A stretch of 13,420 nt of DNA, taken from the IMG/VR virus record IMGVR_UViG_2695420863_000013; one strand, given 5' to 3'. The first letter of the stretch is position 1; every line of letters begins with the position of its first letter. The notes below the pieces were generated by a model. It saw nothing but the letters and a program-made list of their open reading frames with translations. It did not search any database and was not told the DNA's origin. Below, one piece after another: positions 1 to 8,745 of this stretch. This stretch comes from a virus. Its lineage: Duplodnaviria; Heunggongvirae; Uroviricota; Caudoviricetes. Position numbers and translations under genes: made by a program.

Positions 1-116
1 GTAATGGCAACCGGTCCGCCGTATGGCTGCCAGCCCTCTTTCAGTTTGTGTGTCAGCTTTTCCGCAAGGTCTGACGGCGACGCCGCCCTGACAACATCAT
101 AATGTTTAATCGACAT
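1..116 (-). CDS. Hypothetical protein, N-terminal fragment (gene continues beyond the left edge of the window)
   Basis: ATG at 116..114 preceded by GGGAGA Shine-Dalgarno 8 nt upstream; open frame reads MSIKHYDVVRAASPSDLAEKLTHKLKEGWQPYGGPVAI to the window edge. No family assigned. Confidence 0.4.
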   Translation of the reverse strand, partial: MSIKHYDVVRAASPSDLAEKLTHKLKEGWQPYGGPVAI

Positions 117-202
117 CGAATTTCTCCCGTGTAGAGGAACAGAGTTAAAAAGCCGGAAGCGGAATCAAATCACAGGATGACCATCTGCCAGTGGCTGGTC
201 GT

Positions 203-229
203 AAAAAAAAGGCCGCGCCATGCGCAGCC
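203..229 (-). terminator. Rho-independent terminator (GC-rich hairpin followed by T8 on minus strand)
   Basis: Minus strand reads GGCTGCGC-ATG-GCGCGGCC followed by TTTTTTTT (plus-strand A8 at 203-210). Lies downstream of the TerB-like gene and small ORF. Confidence 0.6.
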
Positions 230-430
230 GAAAATAAAGGGATAACGATGATAGTTTGAGAAAAACAGAAATAACACTTTTGTGGCAAAGCATGGTGCCG
301 GGTGCCTCCCGGTGAATTCAGTATCAGCACCTGAATCCGCGATTACCCCATATTCCTTCTTGCTGATTGCCCCACCGCACAGGGGGATTCACCATGCAGA
401 AGTGTTTTTAATAAACAGCAAACAAAAAAA

Positions 431-593: not shown

Positions 594-1027
594 GTCACAG
601 GTAATTCTCCAGACGAAGACCCAGAACACCGGCAATCTCTTCCAGCACCTTGCGCTCTTCCGGCTCAATTTCGCCGTCTGCCTCCGCAATGGCCACCGCC
701 ACATCCAGCACATCTTCCGCTTCACGCGTATCGTGTTTCACATCCTCGATCTCACGTAACGCCGCACGACGACCAGTTTTAAAGTTCGTATCCAGCTGAC
801 CGATAATGGTTGCGCTAATCGCATTAATTTCTGACGTAAACGCGTACAGCGCAGGCTGATTACGCAGTACCTGTTCGATCTTCGCTTTCTAGGAAGCCTC
901 ACATTCACCATCTGCACAGGCCACCAGGTATGCGGCGTTAATCACCACCTGTGCCAGATCGCGTTTTTCAAACTTTCTAATTTCCGTTGCCGCTCTGCGG
1001 GCTTTTTTTACCAAAAATACCAAACAT
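594..1027 (-). pseudogene. TerB-family (tellurite-resistance TerB-like) gene disrupted by a frameshift and an in-frame TAG
   Basis: ATG at 1027 with AAGGAA Shine-Dalgarno gives MFGIFGKKSPQSGNGN then stop. The TerB-like frame continues out of frame (ARRAATEIRKFEKRDLAQVVINAAYLVACADGECEAS-stop-KAKIEQVL...EADGEIEPEERKVLEEIAGVLGLRLENYL). The shift maps to a T7/A7 homopolymer at 1003-1009 and the amber codon to 889-891. Resemblance to TerB is from recalled sequence. Confidence 0.6.
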
Positions 1028-1196
1028 CGTGACGTTCCTTTGGGTGGGTGAGCCAACGCCCGGGAGCGATCTGCCCACAGAGAAAGTCACACTGACCACT
1101 CCATAAGCTCCCCCCGAAAGGCTCTGTGGTTGGTATGCGCCGGGCGTGGTGCGGATACAAAAAAGGTCCGCAAAAGCGAGCGAGGGAAAATAAGTG

Positions 1197-1273
1197 TGGT
1201 GCGTTGTACTGGGTTCGAACCAGTGACCGATTGCTTAGAAGGCAATTGCTCTGTCCGGCTGAGCTAAAAACGC
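1197..1273 (-). tRNA. argO: tRNA-Arg (anticodon TCT), 77 nt with encoded CCA
   Basis: Minus-strand cloverleaf: D stem GCTC/GAGC, anticodon stem ATTGC/GCAAT with loop CTTCTAA, T loop TTCGAAC, 3' CCA. One T-C mismatch in the acceptor stem. Symbol inferred from the ileZ-argN-argO order known in lambdoid/Stx phages. Confidence 0.75.
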
Positions 1274-1286
1274 AGAATACCGATAA

Positions 1287-1363
1287 TGGACCGCCATCGG
1301 AGACTCGAACCCCGCGAAACCAGCTTCGAAGGCTGGCGTTCTATCCCGATGAGCTAATGGCGG
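1287..1363 (-). tRNA. argN: tRNA-Arg (anticodon TCG), 77 nt with encoded CCA
   Basis: Minus-strand cloverleaf: perfect acceptor stem CCGCCAT/ATGGCGG (C1-G72), anticodon stem CCAGC/GCTGG with loop CTTCGAA, T loop TTCGAGT, 3' CCA. One mismatch in the D stem. Symbol assigned by order only. Confidence 0.7.
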
Positions 1364-1370
1364 TATGTGA

Positions 1371-1446
1371 TGGTGGCCCTTGCTGGATTTGAACCAGCGG
1401 CCTGGCGATTATGAGTCGCTCGCTCTCACCACTGAGCTAAAGGGCC
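1371..1446 (-). tRNA. ileZ: tRNA-Ile2 (anticodon CAT, lysidine type), 76 nt with encoded CCA
   Basis: Minus strand reads GGCCCTTTAGCTCAGTGGTGAGAGCGAGCGACTCATAATCGCCAGGCCGCTGGTTCAAATCCAGCAAGGGCCACCA. Near-identical in architecture to E. coli tRNA-Ile2 (ileX/ileY) as recalled; perfect acceptor stem. Confidence 0.85.
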
Positions 1447-1455
1447 GGGCGCAGG

Positions 1456-1484
1456 ATAATAACGTTACGAAATCAATGTTGCAA
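1456..1484 (-). promoter_or_regulatory. Sigma-70 promoter for the tRNA cluster (TTGCAA -17- TATTAT)
   Basis: Minus strand has -35 TTGCAA (1484..1479), a 17-nt spacer, and -10 TATTAT (1461..1456), ending 9 nt upstream of the tRNA-Ile 5' end. Confidence 0.55.
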
Positions 1485-1564
1485 GCATTCAAGAATCACC
1501 TGGTTAAAAATTACCCTTGCTTCCTCCACCAGCGCATTCACCATGTCTATCCGAGATAAGTGGC

Positions 1565-1598
1565 ACAAAAAAACCCGCTTGTGGGCGGGTTTTGTTTG
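1565..1598. terminator. Bidirectional intrinsic terminator just downstream of the Q-like gene (candidate tR'-like late terminator)
   Basis: Hairpin CCCGC-TTGTGG-GCGGG at 1574-1589, flanked by A7 upstream and TTTTGTTTGCTTTT downstream, so U-tracts exist on both strands. Position between Q and the tRNAs matches lambdoid pR'/tR' layout. Confidence 0.6.
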
Positions 1599-1656
1599 CT
1601 TTTGCCATCACGTACAAAATCGGCAAAATATCAGATTTGCATGAAATATATGCCTT

Positions 1657-2346
1657 TCAATCTACTTTTGCAACACTTTGCTTTGAAAATGCCGCCTTTT
1701 GTTTTGAACGCGTTCTCATTACAAACAATAAAGCCTCACTATCCAGTCGGTGAAAAATGTGTTTCATTGCAACCCAGTGACGAGTAAATGTTTTGGACCA
1801 GTTTTTAGTTGTCACTCCCACCAGTAATGCCAGCTCCTTGTATTCATAACCTTCCCCACCAAAAAGTTCTGCTTTTACTGCCTGCGCCGCCAGCCAGATT
1901 AATTTTTTCAGGCGTTCCTGCGTTTTCCCTGCAATTTTTCTGGTACCGGATTGAGTATTAAATTCATTCCACGCCCACTGTGTTATCGCGATCTGATATT
2001 CCCAACAAATACTCCCGCTGTAACACCACAACAACCAGGCTTTATGATGTTCTTCAAGAGACAGAACAGCCCGCCGCCACGATGATGTCGAAAACTCAAT
2101 CGGACTGACCAGAGGAATTGACGTCCCCTTCGCCAGCGATTGCTTTCCCGGGATTGGGGGATTATCCCGCGTTATCATTTTTCCAGTCACTTCATCGCGG
2201 TACCGGATTTTTTTACGCCTGTAACGCCCTGTATCGAACATGGCATTCTCCTGCCAGGCTTCAAGCTGACCTTTTGTTGCCCCACTCAAATCAGCGGTGG
2301 CGATAATGAGCTGCTCACGCACAAACTGTAAATACTGGTTATTCAT
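1657..2346 (-). CDS. Q-like late antiterminator (by position and loose family resemblance)
   Basis: Probable start ATG at 2346, overlapping the rusA TGA stop as ATGA (the track ORF begins 2 codons earlier at GTG 2352). Immediately upstream of a terminator and the tRNA cluster and downstream of rusA, the canonical Q position. No zinc finger of the lambda-Q type was seen, so the family is uncertain. Confidence 0.55.
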   Translation of the reverse strand: MNNQYLQFVREQLIIATADLSGATKGQLEAWQENAMFDTGRYRRKKIRYRDEVTGKMITRDNPPIPGKQSLAKGTSIPLVSPIEFSTSSWRRAVLSLEEHHKAWLLWCYSGSICWEYQIAITQWAWNEFNTQSGTRKIAGKTQERLKKLIWLAAQAVKAELFGGEGYEYKELALLVGVTTKNWSKTFTRHWVAMKHIFHRLDSEALLFVMRTRSKQKAAFSKQSVAKVD

Positions 2347-2708
2347 GCGCACCCCAGTTCTGTGATTTTTATCCCCAACCGCCCACCAGGAACAAGCTGA
2401 CCGCGCACAATATTGATTTCATCAAACTGCTCGTCGTCTATGAGCAGCCCCGCATGCGTCAGTGCATCCAGTGGTGCCTTCAGGATATTGTCCAGGTCAC
2501 GACGGCGCTTATCCGGTGGCTCTGCAATAATTTTTATTGCCAGCCTTCCGGACAGGTTTAATTTCAACCGCTGCTGGCGAACAATTAGTGCCACATCACG
2601 GCGATAACGCTCACCGACTTTTGATACAAAATATGTGCTGCCACGACGTCGCCAGTAAGTATTCACCGTTGGCGGGTAAGGCAAAACAAATTCTATGCGT
2701 TCAGTCAT
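2343..2708 (-). CDS. rusA: Holliday junction resolvase RusA
   Basis: 121-aa protein MTERIEFVLPYPPTVNTYWRRRG...PDKRRRDLDNILKAPLDALTHAGLLIDDEQ...GGRLGIKITELG. The RRRDLDN motif and overall pattern match RusA of DLP12 as recalled. Start abuts the upstream gene's stop. Confidence 0.85.
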   Translation of the reverse strand: MTERIEFVLPYPPTVNTYWRRRGSTYFVSKVGERYRRDVALIVRQQRLKLNLSGRLAIKIIAEPPDKRRRDLDNILKAPLDALTHAGLLIDDEQFDEINIVRGQLVPGGRLGIKITELGCA

Positions 2709-3764
2709 TTATGCTTTCCACTTCAGGACGCCCGAATTTCTCGCGTGCATTAAAAAACGAATCAGCAACAACAGCTGGCTGCCGTGTTTTTCTTCAAAAT
2801 CTTTTACCCCGGCGTGCAGTTCGTTATGACATTTACGGCACAGCGGAATAACAAACAAATCGTCAGCCTTCGTTCCCATCCCTCCTAGTCCATGACCAAT
2901 GATGTGATGCGGATCATCTGCCTGATTGTCACACGTCATGCATTTCTGCGTTTTTACCCAGCGCGTGTATACGGGCATCTCTTCCCGTTGTGGTTTCTGG
3001 CGCTGGAGATACTGAGCCGGTGACTCCGGATCAACGGCAATGCTTACCACCGTCTTTTCCTGTGGCGGGTTTTGCTGGTGGGCGTGAGGCATCGGCGCAA
3101 GATTTTTTGTGCGCTGCTTCAGTATGCTGGTGGCGGTCTGCTCTCCCGGCACGATGTCGCTTTCACGGTACATTGAGCGGATTTTTTCCGCACGCAACCC
3201 CAGCGAACGACGTAATACCGCTTCCGGTAGCGCGTCCGCCACCTGATTGCGGACCGCCCACCAGGATAATTCAGCCAGCGATAATTCCCGTTCCTGCGAG
3301 CCATTCATTGCATGGCGTATGACGTCAATCATCCATGCAGACAGGTTTTGGTGAGCAAGTTGCCCGAGTGATTCGGAGGTCTGGTCGCGCAGCTGGTTGT
3401 CGCAGTGCCAGCACAACACCATTGCGCCGGTACCATAACGGTGAATGACGGTTTCACTGTGGTGATAATCGCCGTGTGGCCACTGGCAGGATTTAACATG
3501 GCGCAGTAACCAATCAGACAATGCGCCAGCGCCACCAGCAGCACGAATCACTCGTTCGTCGCTGAAAAATGGCAGTAATGATTTATCCTCCGCCAGCGGC
3601 TGGCGAACGGCAGGAACGACCCCGGACGGCAGATTACGCATGCTTTTCGGTTCCGGCTCCACCAGTACCCGGGTATTGTGGAATACCGGCATGGATTCAC
3701 GGCCCGGCTTAACGATCACCAGCCCGAGTTCCGGTACCAGAACAGGTCGAAGTAATACCCGCAC
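2709..3764 (-). CDS. DUF968-type phage protein (YdfU-like) with a C-terminal HNH nuclease motif
   Basis: 351-aa ORF with GTG start at 3764 preceded by GGAGGT Shine-Dalgarno. C-terminus has CMTCDNQ...HHIIGH...CRKCHNELH (CxxC...HH...CxxCHxxxH, HNH-like). Same position as ydfU in the Qin prophage (quuQ-ydfU-rem-hokD), as recalled. Confidence 0.6.
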   Translation of the reverse strand: MRVLLRPVLVPELGLVIVKPGRESMPVFHNTRVLVEPEPKSMRNLPSGVVPAVRQPLAEDKSLLPFFSDERVIRAAGGAGALSDWLLRHVKSCQWPHGDYHHSETVIHRYGTGAMVLCWHCDNQLRDQTSESLGQLAHQNLSAWMIDVIRHAMNGSQERELSLAELSWWAVRNQVADALPEAVLRRSLGLRAEKIRSMYRESDIVPGEQTATSILKQRTKNLAPMPHAHQQNPPQEKTVVSIAVDPESPAQYLQRQKPQREEMPVYTRWVKTQKCMTCDNQADDPHHIIGHGLGGMGTKADDLFVIPLCRKCHNELHAGVKDFEEKHGSQLLLLIRFLMHARNSGVLKWKA

Positions 3765-4402: not shown

Positions 4403-5101
4403 CTAACCTAACTGGTGGGCGTGAGGCATCGGCGCAAGATTTTTTGTGCGCTGCTTCAGTATGCTGGTGGCGGTCTGCTCTCCCGGCACGATGTCGCTTT
4501 CACGGTACATTGAGCGGATTTTTTCCGCACGCAACCCCAGCGAACGACGTAATACCGCTTCCGGTAGCGCGTCCGCCACCTGATTGCGGACCGCCCACCA
4601 GGATAATTCAGCCAGAGATAATTCACGCTCCTGCGTACCGCTTATTGCGTGACCGATGACGTCAATCATCCATGCTGACAGGTTTTGATGAGCAAGTTGC
4701 CCGAGTGATTCGGAGGTCTGGTCACGCAACTGGTTGTCGCAGTGCCAGCACAACACCATTGCGCCGGTACCATAACGGTGAATGACGGTTTCGCTGTGAT
4801 GATAATCGCCGTGTGGCCACTGGCAGGATTTAATATGGCGCAACAGCCAGTCAGACAATGCACCAGCACCACCAGCAGCACGAATCACCCGTGCGTTACT
4901 GAAAAACGGCAGCAATGTTTTGTCTTCCACCAGCGGCTGGCGAACGGCAGGAACGACCCCGGACGGCAGATTACGCATGCTTTTCGGTTCCGGCTCCACC
5001 AGTACCCGGGTATTGTGGAATACCGGCATGGATTCACGGCCCGGCTTAACGATCACCAGCCCGAGTTCCGGTACCAGAACAGGTCGAAGTAATACCCGCA
5101 C
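4403..5101 (-). CDS. Truncated DUF968 paralog (232 aa; lacks the C-terminal HNH region), probable gene remnant
   Basis: N-terminal ~230 aa nearly identical to the 2709..3764 protein, then ends at TAG 4403-4405 exactly where homology to the hok cassette begins. GTG start at 5101 abuts the upstream gene's stop. Confidence 0.6.
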   Translation of the reverse strand: MRVLLRPVLVPELGLVIVKPGRESMPVFHNTRVLVEPEPKSMRNLPSGVVPAVRQPLVEDKTLLPFFSNARVIRAAGGAGALSDWLLRHIKSCQWPHGDYHHSETVIHRYGTGAMVLCWHCDNQLRDQTSESLGQLAHQNLSAWMIDVIGHAISGTQERELSLAELSWWAVRNQVADALPEAVLRRSLGLRAEKIRSMYRESDIVPGEQTATSILKQRTKNLAPMPHAHQLG

Positions 5102-7597: not shown

Positions 7598-7858
7598 AAG
7601 TGCGGGTGCGTTGAGGATGCCTGGCACATCAGAGGTGGCGGGAGATTACTCCCCCGCCGGGTCTCTTACTCCTCAGGTTCGTAAGCTGTGAAGACAGCGA
7701 CCTCCGTCTGGCCGGTTCGGATTCGTACCTCGCAGAGGTCTTTCCTCGTTACCAGTGCCGTCACAATGACGGTTAAACAGATGACGATCAGGGCGATTAA
7801 CATCGCCTTTTGCTGCTTCATAGCCTGCTTCCCCTTGCCTTTCGGCACGTAAGAGGCT
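7580..7858. repeat. hok cassette repeat (terminator hairpin + hok + ~40 nt upstream), second copy; first copy at 4126-4404
   Basis: About 279 bp nearly identical between 4126-4404 and 7580-7858, including the hairpin and the whole hok ORF; homology ends at ggctaacct on the upstream side in both copies. Confidence 0.75.
7666..7821 (-). CDS. hok: Hok-family type I toxin (HokD/RelF-like), copy 2
   Basis: 51-aa MKQQKAMLIALIVICLTVIVTALVTRKDLCEVRIRTGQTEVAVFTAYEPEE, identical to HokD/RelF as recalled. Start set at the MKQQ methionine with a GGGGAAG Shine-Dalgarno-like element upstream. Confidence 0.85.
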   Translation of the reverse strand: MKQQKAMLIALIVICLTVIVTALVTRKDLCEVRIRTGQTEVAVFTAYEPEE

Positions 7859-8058
7859 AACCTACATTTGTGAGACATAGATTGGGCCTCAGATTAATGT
7901 TAAGCGTCTTGCAGGACGCGAAATGTTAACTGGGGCTTTTCTCTATCTGCCTTTCAGTGTTCATGCCTGAGACAGATAGCCTCAAGCACCCGCAGCCATT
8001 CTACTTAACTCACGTCACCTCGCCAATATGAAATCAATCAGAAAGGTGATCCATAAAA

Positions 8059-8745
8059 TCACTCCTTCTCTTCTTTTCCGTAGTGGAGTTGGCCAATTTT
8101 GATAAGAGGGCGTCCCTGAGATTTGCGGTGTAGATTGGTATCGCGCAGAGAATACACACAGCCACAATATTCCTGCTGATAGAATTTTTCGCGCTTGCTG
8201 ATTTCAATCATACGGGACGAGCCGCCCTGCTTGCGCCAGTTATAATCCCAGTACACCATACCCGGATAATGCGCAACAGCTCGCCGCCCACACTCGTTAA
8301 CCTGCTGCATATTTTTCCAGCGTGAAATGCCCAGTGAACTGCTGATCACACTGAAACCATTTTCAGCAGCGTACAACGCTGTCCGCTCAAAACGCATGTC
8401 AAAACACATGGTACAACGGATCCCCCTCTCAGGCTCCCATTCCATTCCTTTGGCACGTTCAAACCAGTTGTCGGTGTCGTAATCAGCATCGATAAACGGC
8501 ACGCCGTGTTGTTCAGCAAAGCGAATATTTTCATCCTTACGAATTAAATACTCTTTCTGAGGATGAATGTTCGGGTTGTAGAAAAAGATGGTGTAGTCGA
8601 TTCCCGAGGCCTGAAGCGCCTCCATCACTTCACCGGAACATGGAGCACAGCAAGAGTGCAGTAGTAGTTTGTTTGCCCCGTTTGGGAGCTCCAATTTAGG
8701 CCGTTTGAAATCAGCAATAGTCATAAATATTTTTATTGGGGTCAT
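8059..8745 (-). CDS. DUF208/QueH-like protein (putative epoxyqueuosine reductase family)
   Basis: 228-aa ORF with an N-terminal [11 protein letters not shown] motif and a C-terminal [11 protein letters not shown] motif, which I recall as characteristic of QueH. No good Shine-Dalgarno at either candidate ATG (8745 or 8724). Confidence 0.55.

What the first reader, a model, noticed from the sequence alone, without database searches (positions are those of the whole stretch)
1197..1484. Phage tRNA cluster (Ile-CAT, Arg-TCG, Arg-TCT) with its own strong promoter and non-canonical acceptor stems
The three tRNAs match the ileZ-argN-argO type cluster known downstream of Q in lambdoid/Stx phages and decode rare AUA, CGA and AGA/AGG codons. 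A near-consensus promoter (TTGCAA-17-TATTAT) sits 9 nt upstream of the first tRNA, implying expression independent of Q antitermination. The Arg-TCG tRNA starts with C1-G72 and the Arg-TCT tRNA has a T-C acceptor mismatch. In Stx phages toxin genes follow this cluster; here a disrupted TerB-like gene follows instead.
Basis: partly seen in the sequence, partly recalled or inferred. Interest (0 to 1): 0.45.

Follow-up and report, generated by a model that had tools for sequence, protein, structure and literature searches.

The report
Known prophage tRNA cassette with own promoter
This is the well-known three-tRNA cassette (Ile, Arg, Arg) carried behind the late-gene regulator Q of lambda-like E. 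coli prophages; it has its own conserved promoter, so it is real and correctly read but ordinary, and this copy is slightly degraded.

Summary
Three tRNA genes lie on the minus strand: CAT 1446..1371, TCG 1363..1287 and TCT 1273..1197. A TTGCAA-17-TATTAT motif ends 9 nt before the first one. They sit downstream of Q, a pR'-like promoter and a strong tR'-like terminator. The 601-bp locus is 100% identical in hundreds of E. coli genomes, including O157:H7, and is the ileZ-argN-argO cluster annotated in Sakai and Stx phages.

The CAT tRNA is an ileX-type tRNA-Ile2: 88% identical to ileX and 68% to tRNA-Met.

The promoter matches consensus at only 9 of 12 positions, so "near-consensus/strong" is overstated on sequence alone. 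But in about 120 related loci with 8 different upstream contexts, homology begins exactly at the -35. Published dRNA-seq in Sakai Sp5 (Sy et al. 2020) already reports a primary start site driving these tRNAs.

C1-G72 with U73 is a family-wide trait of argN. The U6·C67 mismatch in argO is an allele-specific lesion. This allele also carries an argN D-stem mismatch and a crippled post-argO terminator. The TerB-like gene is broken by a nonsense codon.

The cognate rare codons are 3.6-11 times enriched in the prophage genes.

Verdict: already known, low interest.

The parts
1371..1446 (-). tRNA-Ile2 (anticodon CAT, ileZ-type; C34 presumably converted to lysidine to read AUA); CCA encoded
   Evidence: ARAGORN and Rfam at 72.5 bits. 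It is 88% identical to K-12 ileX and 68% to metT/metU, and shares the G1-C5 acceptor start and the anticodon stem-loop GCGACTCATAATCGC. PGAP calls identical copies tRNA-Ile. It is nearly invariant in relatives: pi is 0.002 outside the ascertained part.
1287..1363 (-). tRNA-Arg (anticodon TCG, argN-type) with C1-G72 and U73; this allele also has a C.A mismatch in the D stem and a G.U in the T stem
   Evidence: ARAGORN structure and Rfam at 44.4 bits. C1-G72 with U73 is present in all but a few degenerate alleles of the 32-allele alignment. The D-stem mismatch is specific to this allele. This is the least constrained of the three genes: pi is 0.079, and 23 of 47 copies have at least one stem mismatch.
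1197..1273 (-). tRNA-Arg (anticodon TCT, argO-type) with a U6.C67 acceptor-stem mismatch and A73
   Evidence: ARAGORN and Rfam at 63.3 bits. Ninety of 95 sampled argO copies have G6-C67, and the T6 allele is the window/O157-TR01 allele. Predicted stability is -18.0 kcal/mol against -23.1 for the common allele.
1456..1484 (-). sigma-70-type promoter of the tRNA cassette: -35 TTGCAA (1484..1479), 17-nt spacer, -10 TATTAT (1461..1456). It is followed by the G+C-rich 9-nt stretch CCTGCGCCC (1455..1447), so the predicted 5' leader is only about 3-4 nt
   Evidence: Scan result is 9 of 12. In 40 distinct upstream haplotypes, conservation jumps from about 0.5 to 0.9 exactly at the first T of the -35, and the -10 is 0.88-0.97 conserved. 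The architecture is kept in 8 different far-upstream contexts. A dRNA-seq primary TSS for the tRNAs was reported at the homologous Sp5 locus (PMC7547250), and Sp5 carries TTGCAG-17-TATTAT-9-ileZ.
1159..1182 (-). Degenerate remnant of the cassette's intrinsic terminator (hairpin plus T-run) after argO
   Evidence: The consensus GGCTCGC-TTTT-GCGGGCC plus T6 folds at -13.8 kcal/mol (z -4.45). The window allele has two non-compensating substitutions and folds at -4.4 (z -0.96). About two thirds of sampled modules keep the strong hairpin, and the window-type tail occurs in 8 of 99.
1567..1593 (-). tR'-like intrinsic terminator between Q/pR' and the tRNA promoter
   Evidence: CCCGC-CCACAA-GCGGG followed by T7 folds at -16.4 kcal/mol (z -3.95). 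The hairpin is also flagged by the scan.
1645..1673 (-). pR'-like late promoter candidate (TTGCAA-17-TATATT) overlapping the end of Q
   Evidence: Scan result. Its position relative to Q and the terminator matches the lambdoid Q-pR'-tR' layout. No experimental test was made here.
1657..2352 (-). Antitermination protein Q gene
   Evidence: Pfam PF06323 Phage_antiter_Q, E = 9.8e-93. Annotated as Q in relatives.
595..1023 (-). TerB/TciA-like gene inactivated by an in-frame TAG at 891..889 (codon 45 of 142)
   Evidence: Alignment with the intact O157 TR01 gene (WP_001303558.1) shows 3 substitutions in 780 nt, one of them GAG->TAG. A TerB domain (PF05099) is found in the part after the stop.

Best explanation
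The feature is a copy of the ileZ-argN-argO tRNA cassette that lambdoid prophages of E. coli, including Stx phages, carry between the Q/pR'/tR' late-control region and the first late-region cargo genes.

The cassette is a small autonomous transcription unit. A sigma-70 promoter (TTGCAA-17-TATTAT) lies 9 nt before the first tRNA. RNA polymerase should start about 3-4 nt upstream of ileZ and transcribe all three tRNAs as one precursor, which is then cut by RNase P and 3' exonucleases; CCA is encoded. In most relatives transcription stops at a hairpin-plus-U terminator just after argO.

Because the promoter lies downstream of tR', the tRNAs are made in the lysogen and early in infection, without Q. 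After induction, Q-modified polymerase from pR' adds to this.

The products are tRNA-Ile2 (CAU to lysidine, reads AUA), tRNA-Arg(UCG) (CGA/CGG) and tRNA-Arg(UCU) (AGA/AGG). They supplement host tRNAs that are scarce, for codons that prophage genes use 3.6-11 times more often than core genes.

Shown here: the genes, their identity, their placement, conservation of the promoter as part of the module, the codon bias, and the terminator state. Shown by others at a homologous locus: a primary TSS for the tRNAs. Inferred: activity of this particular copy, processing, modification and charging.

This allele is mildly degraded. It has U6.C67 in argO, C.A in the argN D stem, a weakened terminator that probably lets transcription run into the downstream gene, and a nonsense-mutated TerB-like gene.
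For: tRNA calls come from two methods. The locus is 100% identical in more than 300 E. coli genome records, where it is annotated tRNA-Ile plus two tRNA-Arg next to Q. It is homologous to the named ileZ/argN/argO of Stx2a_F723 and Sakai Sp5. ileZ is 88% identical to ileX. The Q/RusA/DUF968 genes lie upstream, and a strong terminator lies between Q and the tRNA promoter.

Promoter evidence: the homology boundary sits at the -35, the hexamers are the best-conserved upstream positions, spacing is fixed at 17 and 9(10) nt, and 8 independent upstream contexts keep the architecture. [quoted passage not shown] Host ileX has the same layout, with TATAAT ending 10 nt before the mature 5' end. The terminator is conserved in the family.

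Codon usage per 1000 codons: ATA 8.7, AGA 8.7, AGG 8.1, CGA 9.6 in window ORFs, against 2.4, 1.2, 0.7, 2.6 in 42 K-12 core genes. The bias is as strong in early as in late genes. tRNA genes just downstream of Q are reported for several lambdoid phages (PMC3636060).
Against: The promoter is only a 9-of-12 consensus match, and such matches are common in this region. No transcript data exist for this exact copy, and the published TSS coordinate could not be retrieved because the supplement is not held. A leader of 3-4 nt is unusually short for RNase P substrates. The argN and argO alleles here carry stem mismatches, and argN in general evolves fast with uncompensated changes, so their function as decoders is not assured. 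Charging and lysidine modification are untested.
Confidence: 0.82

Rival explanations
1. The promoter-like motif is not used. The tRNAs are made only when Q-modified polymerase from pR' reads through tR', as late-gene products, and the hexamers are conserved merely because they lie inside a recently spread homologous block.
For: The consensus match is only 9 of 12, and 8 comparable sites occur in 3 kb against 3.2 expected. All sampled modules are close relatives, so conservation could partly reflect shared descent.
Against: The 17-nt spacer and the 9-nt stretch before the tRNA vary (pi 0.26 and 0.23), while the -10 (0.11) and the TTG of the -35 are held. The homology boundary falls exactly at the -35 in 8 contexts. 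dRNA-seq in a non-induced Sakai culture called a primary TSS for these tRNAs. Host ileX has the same promoter placement.
Confidence: 0.07
2. In this copy only ileZ is a working gene. The argN and argO alleles are decaying pseudo-tRNAs in a defective prophage, and the 'non-canonical stems' are simply damage.
For: Window-specific lesions are U6.C67 in argO, C.A in the argN D stem, G.U in the argN T stem, two uncompensated hits in the terminator, and a nonsense codon in the next gene. argN has pi 0.079 against 0.002 for ileZ, half of its copies have mismatches, it has no compensatory changes within the TCG group, and it is absent from 29 or more of 120 cassettes. The argN Rfam score is only 44.4 bits. 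The predicted MFE of the window argN is not a cloverleaf.
Against: The same allele is 100% identical across hundreds of genomes. A single mismatch per tRNA is commonly tolerated. argN and argO are still far more conserved than the spacers and flanks, which have pi 0.15-0.29. MFE prediction also fails to give a cloverleaf for the intact ileZ and for the consensus argO, so it is uninformative. Both tRNAs pass ARAGORN and the Rfam thresholds.
Confidence: 0.25
3. The cassette, or at least the argN-type scaffold, serves mainly as a counter-defence device. It would supply replacement or decoy tRNAs that escape host anticodon nucleases, for example those attacking tRNA-Arg or tRNA-Lys, rather than supplementing codon usage.
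For: The argN scaffold is hypervariable and switches anticodon (TCG, TCT, TTT) while keeping C1-G72/U73, with 3 compensated pairs in the Lys form. Sister cassettes behind the same promoter carry Lys(TTT), Thr(TGT) and Gly(TCC). Phage tRNAs that evade tRNA-targeting defences are an established concept; this is from my own knowledge of the literature and was not checked here.
Against: The anticodons match exactly the codons that are enriched in the prophage genes, which the simpler hypothesis explains. The anticodon loops are ordinary. No nuclease or defence gene was linked to the cassette in this window. No experiment bears on it.
Confidence: 0.08

Closest known systems
ileZ-argN-argO tRNA genes of Stx-converting and other lambdoid prophages of E. 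coli O157:H7 (e.g. ileZ2/argN2/argO2 of Sakai Sp5; 933W-type phage Stx2a_F723)
   Same: Same three anticodons in the same order and on the same strand, in the same position downstream of Q/pR'/tR'. The sequences are homologous, with ileZ differing at one base. The promoter architecture is the same (TTGCAG or TTGCAA-17-TATTAT-9 nt). The window's 601-bp locus is 100% identical to one carried by non-Stx lambdoid prophages of O157:H7 and many other strains.
   Different: A TerB/TciA-like gene, here a pseudogene, plus a DUF3927 gene follow instead of stxAB. Upstream is a different Q type with tR' about 80 nt away, rather than a methyltransferase remnant. This allele has TTGCAA, one consensus match more than TTGCAG, along with U6.C67 in argO, C.A in the argN D stem and a crippled terminator.
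E. coli K-12 ileX (tRNA-Ile2, lysidine-modified CAU anticodon)
   Same: 88% identity, an identical anticodon stem-loop and G1-C5 acceptor start, a -10 hexamer ending 9-10 nt before the mature 5' end, and CCA encoded.
   Different: ileX is monocistronic with its own strong terminator, while ileZ heads a polycistronic prophage cassette. The 6-67 pair is C-G in ileX and U-A in ileZ.
Morons of lambdoid phages (autonomous promoter-gene-terminator units inserted between conserved phage genes)
   Same: The family consensus has its own promoter and its own terminator, has variable cargo (Arg/Arg, Arg only, Lys/Thr/Gly, none), is inserted at a module junction, and is expressed in the lysogen.
   Different: The cargo is tRNA rather than protein. 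In this window the terminator is degraded to -4.4 kcal/mol, so the unit is probably no longer insulated from the downstream genes.
tRNA genes downstream of Q in other lambdoid phages (SfI, Sf6, ST64T, phage 21: Asn/Thr)
   Same: Same genomic slot, and the same proposed role of supplementing tRNAs for codons over-used by the phage (PMC3636060).
   Different: Different tRNA species. No sequence relationship was tested.

Membership tests
Lambdoid-prophage ileZ-argN-argO tRNA cluster | Three co-oriented tRNA genes with anticodons CAT, TCG, TCT in that order | tested here: met
   ARAGORN and Rfam.
Lambdoid-prophage ileZ-argN-argO tRNA cluster | Located downstream of antiterminator Q and its pR'/tR', ahead of late-region cargo and lysis genes | tested here: met
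   Q (PF06323) lies at 2352..1657, the terminator at 1593..1567 and the tRNAs at 1446..1197. The late genes that follow are seen in the identical O157 locus.
Lambdoid-prophage ileZ-argN-argO tRNA cluster | Sequence homology to the named genes of Stx phages | tested here: met
   Alignment with Stx2a_F723 and Sakai Sp5, where the genes are annotated ileZ/argN/argO.
tRNA-Ile2 (ileX type, lysidine at position 34) | CAU anticodon on a body closer to tRNA-Ile2 than to elongator or initiator tRNA-Met | tested here: met
   88% identity to ileX against 68% to metT/metU, with a shared acceptor start and anticodon stem-loop. PGAP labels it tRNA-Ile.
tRNA-Ile2 (ileX type, lysidine at position 34) | C34 converted to lysidine by TilS and charged by IleRS | not testable with these tools
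   Requires mass spectrometry or aminoacylation assays.
E. coli-type tRNA-Arg (ArgRS identity set: A20, C35, U/G36, purine 73; from established tRNA-identity literature, recalled) | A20 in the D loop and C35 with G36 or U36 | tested here: met
   Read from the sequences and the ARAGORN structures. The D loops are AUCGGGAUA (argN) and AGCCGGACA (argO), and the anticodons are UCG and UCU.
E. coli-type tRNA-Arg (ArgRS identity set: A20, C35, U/G36, purine 73; from established tRNA-identity literature, recalled) | Purine at discriminator position 73 and the usual G1-C72 start | tested here: not met
   This is met for argO (G1-C72, A73). It is not met for argN, which has C1-G72 and U73 in essentially every sampled allele. 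Position 73 is a minor identity element, so charging with Arg remains plausible but unproven.
Sigma-70 promoter | -35 and -10 hexamers at 16-18 nt spacing | tested here: met
   TTGCAA-17-TATTAT, a 9-of-12 match.
Sigma-70 promoter | Evolutionary conservation of the hexamers and spacing beyond that of neighbouring positions | tested here: met
   40 upstream haplotypes and 8 contexts were compared. TTG is 0.88-0.95 conserved and TATTAT 0.88-0.97, against about 0.5 upstream of the -35. Among strict modules, pi is 0.11 for the -10 against 0.26 for the spacer.
Sigma-70 promoter | Mapped primary transcription start site | not testable with these tools
   Not available for this copy. It is reported by dRNA-seq for the homologous Sp5 promoter (PMC7547250), but the coordinate table is not held.
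Moron (autonomous promoter-cargo-terminator unit) | Own terminator directly after the cargo | tested here: not met
   The family consensus hairpin folds at -13.8 kcal/mol (z -4.45), but the window allele folds at -4.4 (z -0.96). The family qualifies; this copy has lost the feature.
Moron (autonomous promoter-cargo-terminator unit) | Variable presence or content at a fixed junction between conserved phage modules | tested here: met
   Eight architectures occur behind the same ileZ and promoter, in 8 upstream contexts.

The most novel reading that the evidence does not exclude
The argN-type scaffold (C1-G72, U73, a conserved A at -1 that could form an eighth acceptor pair, and an invariant 7-nt spacer after ileZ) may not be an ordinary decoder. 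It could be a fast-evolving, anticodon-switching phage tRNA platform (UCG, UCU, UUU on the same body) whose diversification is driven by conflict with host tRNA-targeting defences or by unusual 5' processing or charging. In this allele, loss of the cassette terminator would additionally turn the tRNA promoter into a constitutive lysogenic promoter for the downstream TerB/DUF3927 genes.
Probability: 0.1. Interest if true: 0.5.

Novelty: already known. Interest (0 to 1): 0.14.

Why it matters
The cassette matters biologically. It lets lambdoid prophages, including Shiga-toxin phages, translate AUA-, AGA/AGG- and CGA-rich genes in a host that is poor in those tRNAs. Because it has its own promoter, it does so already in the lysogen. 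However, the genes have been named and annotated for over two decades, the exact sequence is present in hundreds of genomes, and a transcription start site for the tRNAs has been published.

This analysis adds only detail:
- The promoter is the 5' edge of the mobile module.
- The family has its own terminator, which this allele has lost.
- Constraint falls steeply from ileZ to argO to argN.

Tried and rejected
1. ARAGORN's label 'tRNA-Met' for the CAT tRNA was rejected in favour of tRNA-Ile2 after comparison with K-12 ileX and metT/metU and the PGAP annotation.
2. My first guess, that a frameshift in the A-run at the start of the TerB-like gene disrupts it, was rejected. The intact O157 gene has the same A-run and starts at an in-frame TTG, and the lesion is a GAG->TAG nonsense codon.
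3. The idea that the Thr(TGT) and Gly(TCC) tRNAs of sister cassettes are anticodon-switched argO/argN was rejected, because they are only 56-70% identical. Only Lys(TTT) derives from the argN scaffold, at 82%.
4. Single-sequence MFE folding as a test of whether the mismatch alleles still form cloverleaves is uninformative. Even ileZ and the consensus argO do not give a cloverleaf MFE.
5. Full-text searches for ileZ/argN/argO returned nothing relevant. The original 933W genome paper is not held, and the supplement with the TSS coordinates is not held.
6. A first diversity calculation on a gapped alignment mixing different cassette architectures was discarded in favour of 47 ungapped strict modules.
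7. The whole 13.4-kb window has no full-length match among complete E. coli genomes; the best covers 87% at 98% identity. The exact source strain was therefore not identified, and it is not needed for the verdict.

Full report
**Observation**

ARAGORN finds exactly three tRNA genes in the window, all on the minus strand: anticodon CAT at 1446..1371, TCG at 1363..1287 and TCT at 1273..1197. Rfam's tRNA model confirms them at 72.5, 44.4 and 63.3 bits against a gathering score of 29.

The consensus scan scores this site 9 of 12. It finds eight sites of that quality in the first 3 kb, against 3.2 +/- 2.0 in shuffles. On sequence alone the promoter is therefore neither "near-consensus" nor beyond chance.

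The Arg-TCG tRNA begins C1-G72 and has U73. The Arg-TCT tRNA has a U6.C67 mismatch in its acceptor stem.

**Context**

Upstream on the same strand lie three genes:
- a DUF968 gene at 3764..2709;
- rusA at 2708..2343;
- antiterminator Q at 2352..1657 (PF06323, E = 1e-92).

A promoter-like site (TTGCAA-17-TATATT, 1673..1645) overlaps the end of Q. It is followed by a strong intrinsic terminator at 1593..1567 (-16.4 kcal/mol, z -3.95). This is the lambdoid Q-pR'-tR' arrangement. The tRNA promoter lies about 80 nt beyond that terminator.

Downstream of the tRNAs is a TerB/TciA-like gene. Compared with the intact 142-codon gene of O157:H7 strain TR01, it differs by three substitutions in 780 nt. 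One of these turns codon 45 (GAG) into TAG, at window 891..889. The TerB domain is still detectable after the stop, and a DUF3927 gene follows. The gene is therefore disrupted, by a nonsense mutation.

**Identity**

- The 601-bp stretch 1100-1700 is 100% identical in hundreds of complete E. coli genomes, including many O157:H7 strains. There, RefSeq annotates tRNA-Ile, two tRNA-Arg and Q.
- More than 350 phage records match, most of them Stx-converting phages.
- In Stx2a_F723 and in Sakai prophage Sp5 the homologous genes are named ileZ, argN and argO, and are followed by stx2AB.
- The CAT tRNA is 88% identical to K-12 ileX, with the same G1-C5 acceptor start and the same anticodon stem-loop. 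It is only 68% identical to elongator tRNA-Met. It is therefore a tRNA-Ile2 and not the "Met" that ARAGORN prints.
- The literature also records tRNA genes directly downstream of Q in several other lambdoid phages, and an ileX-like gene next to stx2 (PMC3636060).

**Promoter**

I collected about 120 further loci that carry the 5' part of ileZ and compared their flanks.
- Among 40 distinct upstream haplotypes, positional conservation is about 0.5 upstream of the -35. It jumps to 0.93/0.95/0.88 at the TTG of the -35 and is 0.88-0.97 across TATTAT.
- The far-upstream sequence falls into eight unrelated classes. These include a methyltransferase remnant, the window's tR' region, and a terminator abutting the -35. 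All of them keep TTGnnn-17-TATTAT-9(10)-ileZ.
- The pairwise alignment with Stx2a_F723 and ML35 shows homology starting at the -35.
- In 47 strictly collinear modules, nucleotide diversity is 0.11 in the -10 and 0.18 in the -35, against 0.26 in the spacer and 0.23 in the 9 nt before the tRNA.

The promoter is thus the 5' edge of the mobile tRNA module.

Independently, Sy, Lan and Tree (PNAS 2020, PMC7547250) mapped primary 5' ends in a Sakai lysogen. [quoted passage not shown] Sp5 carries TTGCAG-17-TATTAT-9-ileZ at that place. I could not retrieve the coordinate itself.

Host ileX shows the same layout, with TATAAT ending 10 nt before the mature 5' end. Q-independent transcription is therefore well supported, but it is not a new idea. 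The word "strong" remains untested.

**The other end of the module**

In most relatives argO is followed by GGCTCGC-TTTT-GCGGGCC and a T-run. This folds at -13.8 kcal/mol (z -4.45) and varies in its loop while keeping its stem. The family is thus a promoter-cargo-terminator unit of the moron type.

The window's allele has two non-compensating substitutions in this hairpin and folds at -4.4 kcal/mol (z -0.96). Transcripts from the tRNA promoter therefore probably continue towards the TerB-like pseudogene.

**The "non-canonical stems"**

C1-G72 with U73 occurs in essentially every sampled allele of argN and of its derivatives. It is a lineage trait.

U6.C67 in argO is different. Ninety of 95 sampled copies have G6-C67, and the T6 variant is the window/O157-TR01 allele. 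The same allele also has a C.A mismatch in the argN D stem and a G.U in its T stem.

Constraint falls steeply along the cassette:

| Segment | Nucleotide diversity (pi) |
|---|---|
| ileZ | 0.002 |
| argO | 0.033 |
| argN | 0.079 |
| second spacer | 0.155 |
| 3' flank | 0.29 |

Half of the argN copies carry at least one stem mismatch. Changes within the TCG group are one-sided or disruptive. argN is also missing from many cassettes. MFE folding could not decide whether the window alleles still fold correctly, because it also fails on the intact genes.

**Function**

Per 1000 codons, the usage of the codons these tRNAs read is as follows:

| Codon | Window, 16 prophage ORFs | K-12, 42 core genes |
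|---|---|---|
| ATA | 8.7 | 2.4 |
| AGA | 8.7 | 1.2 |
| AGG | 8.1 | 0.7 |
| CGA | 9.6 | 2.6 |

The same bias holds for early and late genes of the O157 prophage that carries the identical cassette, and for stx2AB. Bias in early genes fits a promoter that works before Q acts.

**Verdict**

The feature is the long-known ileZ-argN-argO cassette, in a copy identical to sequences annotated in hundreds of genomes, and its own promoter has already been seen by dRNA-seq. The only unusual points are that this allele is mildly degraded and that the argN scaffold evolves oddly. It switches anticodon to TTT or TCT in relatives, and the Lys form has three compensated stem pairs. These are minor leads and not a discovery.

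Noticed in passing
window 254-426 (-): Full-length Rfam match to sRNA family STnc100 (100.8 bits against a gathering score of 47), just downstream of the DUF3927 gene. It is a prophage-borne sRNA candidate in the late-region cargo slot.
   Followed up: no
window 7816-7991 (-), with ORF 7666-7878 (-): sok antisense RNA (Rfam, 120.5 bits) with an adjacent hok-type toxin ORF. This is a type I toxin-antitoxin locus inside the prophage early region, annotated hokD in relatives.
   Followed up: no
window 8059-8745 (-): Prophage-encoded epoxyqueuosine reductase QueH (PF02677, E = 1e-65). A tRNA-modification enzyme sits in the same prophage as the tRNA cassette.
   Followed up: partly
window 4403-5101 (-): A second ORF that carries only the first third of the DUF968 domain. 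It is an apparent truncated duplicate of the full DUF968/HNH gene at 2709-3764.
   Followed up: no
IMG/VR loci such as L008 (tRNAs at +1..310 from ileZ); L001 3089-3329: Behind the same ileZ and promoter, sister cassettes carry Lys(TTT)-Thr(TGT)-Gly(TCC) (14 loci), Arg-TCT only (29), or ileZ alone (6). The Lys(TTT) gene is the argN scaffold (82% identity, C1-G72 and U73 kept) with three compensated stem pairs, and one argN copy has anticodon TCT. This is natural anticodon switching on one tRNA body.
   Followed up: partly
window 1364-1370 (-) and position 1364: The 7-nt spacer TCACATA between ileZ and argN is invariant in all 47 strict modules, while the 13-nt argN-argO spacer varies (pi 0.155). 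The A at -1 of argN is kept even in cassettes with a 6-nt spacer deletion, and it could pair with U73 to give an eighth acceptor pair.
   Followed up: partly
L001 (Stx2a_14040 / PPompW) 1547-3005 and 3177-3252: In PPompW-type prophages an ISEc20 element is inserted immediately after the tRNA cassette. The Lys(TTT) variant there has a G3.U70 pair and a 1-nt deletion in the D arm, so it is probably decaying.
   Followed up: no
L126 10560-10720 (K-12 ileX): Host ileX has a perfect TATAAT ending 10 nt before the mature 5' end, and a 12-bp terminator right after the gene. This is the same compact layout as the prophage cassette, suggesting that ileZ was captured together with its promoter.
   Followed up: partly
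window 1567-1673 (-): The pR'-like promoter and the tR'-like terminator are only about 70 nt apart. That predicts a short, constitutively made terminated RNA analogous to lambda 6S RNA or StxS, but much shorter than the 258-nt StxS precursor.
   Followed up: no
two IMG/VR loci in the strict set (argO alleles ending ...AAGCAGCTGTGGTTGCACTCC...): argO is truncated after the anticodon stem by a deletion that fuses it to the DUF3927 gene, another sign of ongoing erosion of the 3' part of the cassette.
   Followed up: no
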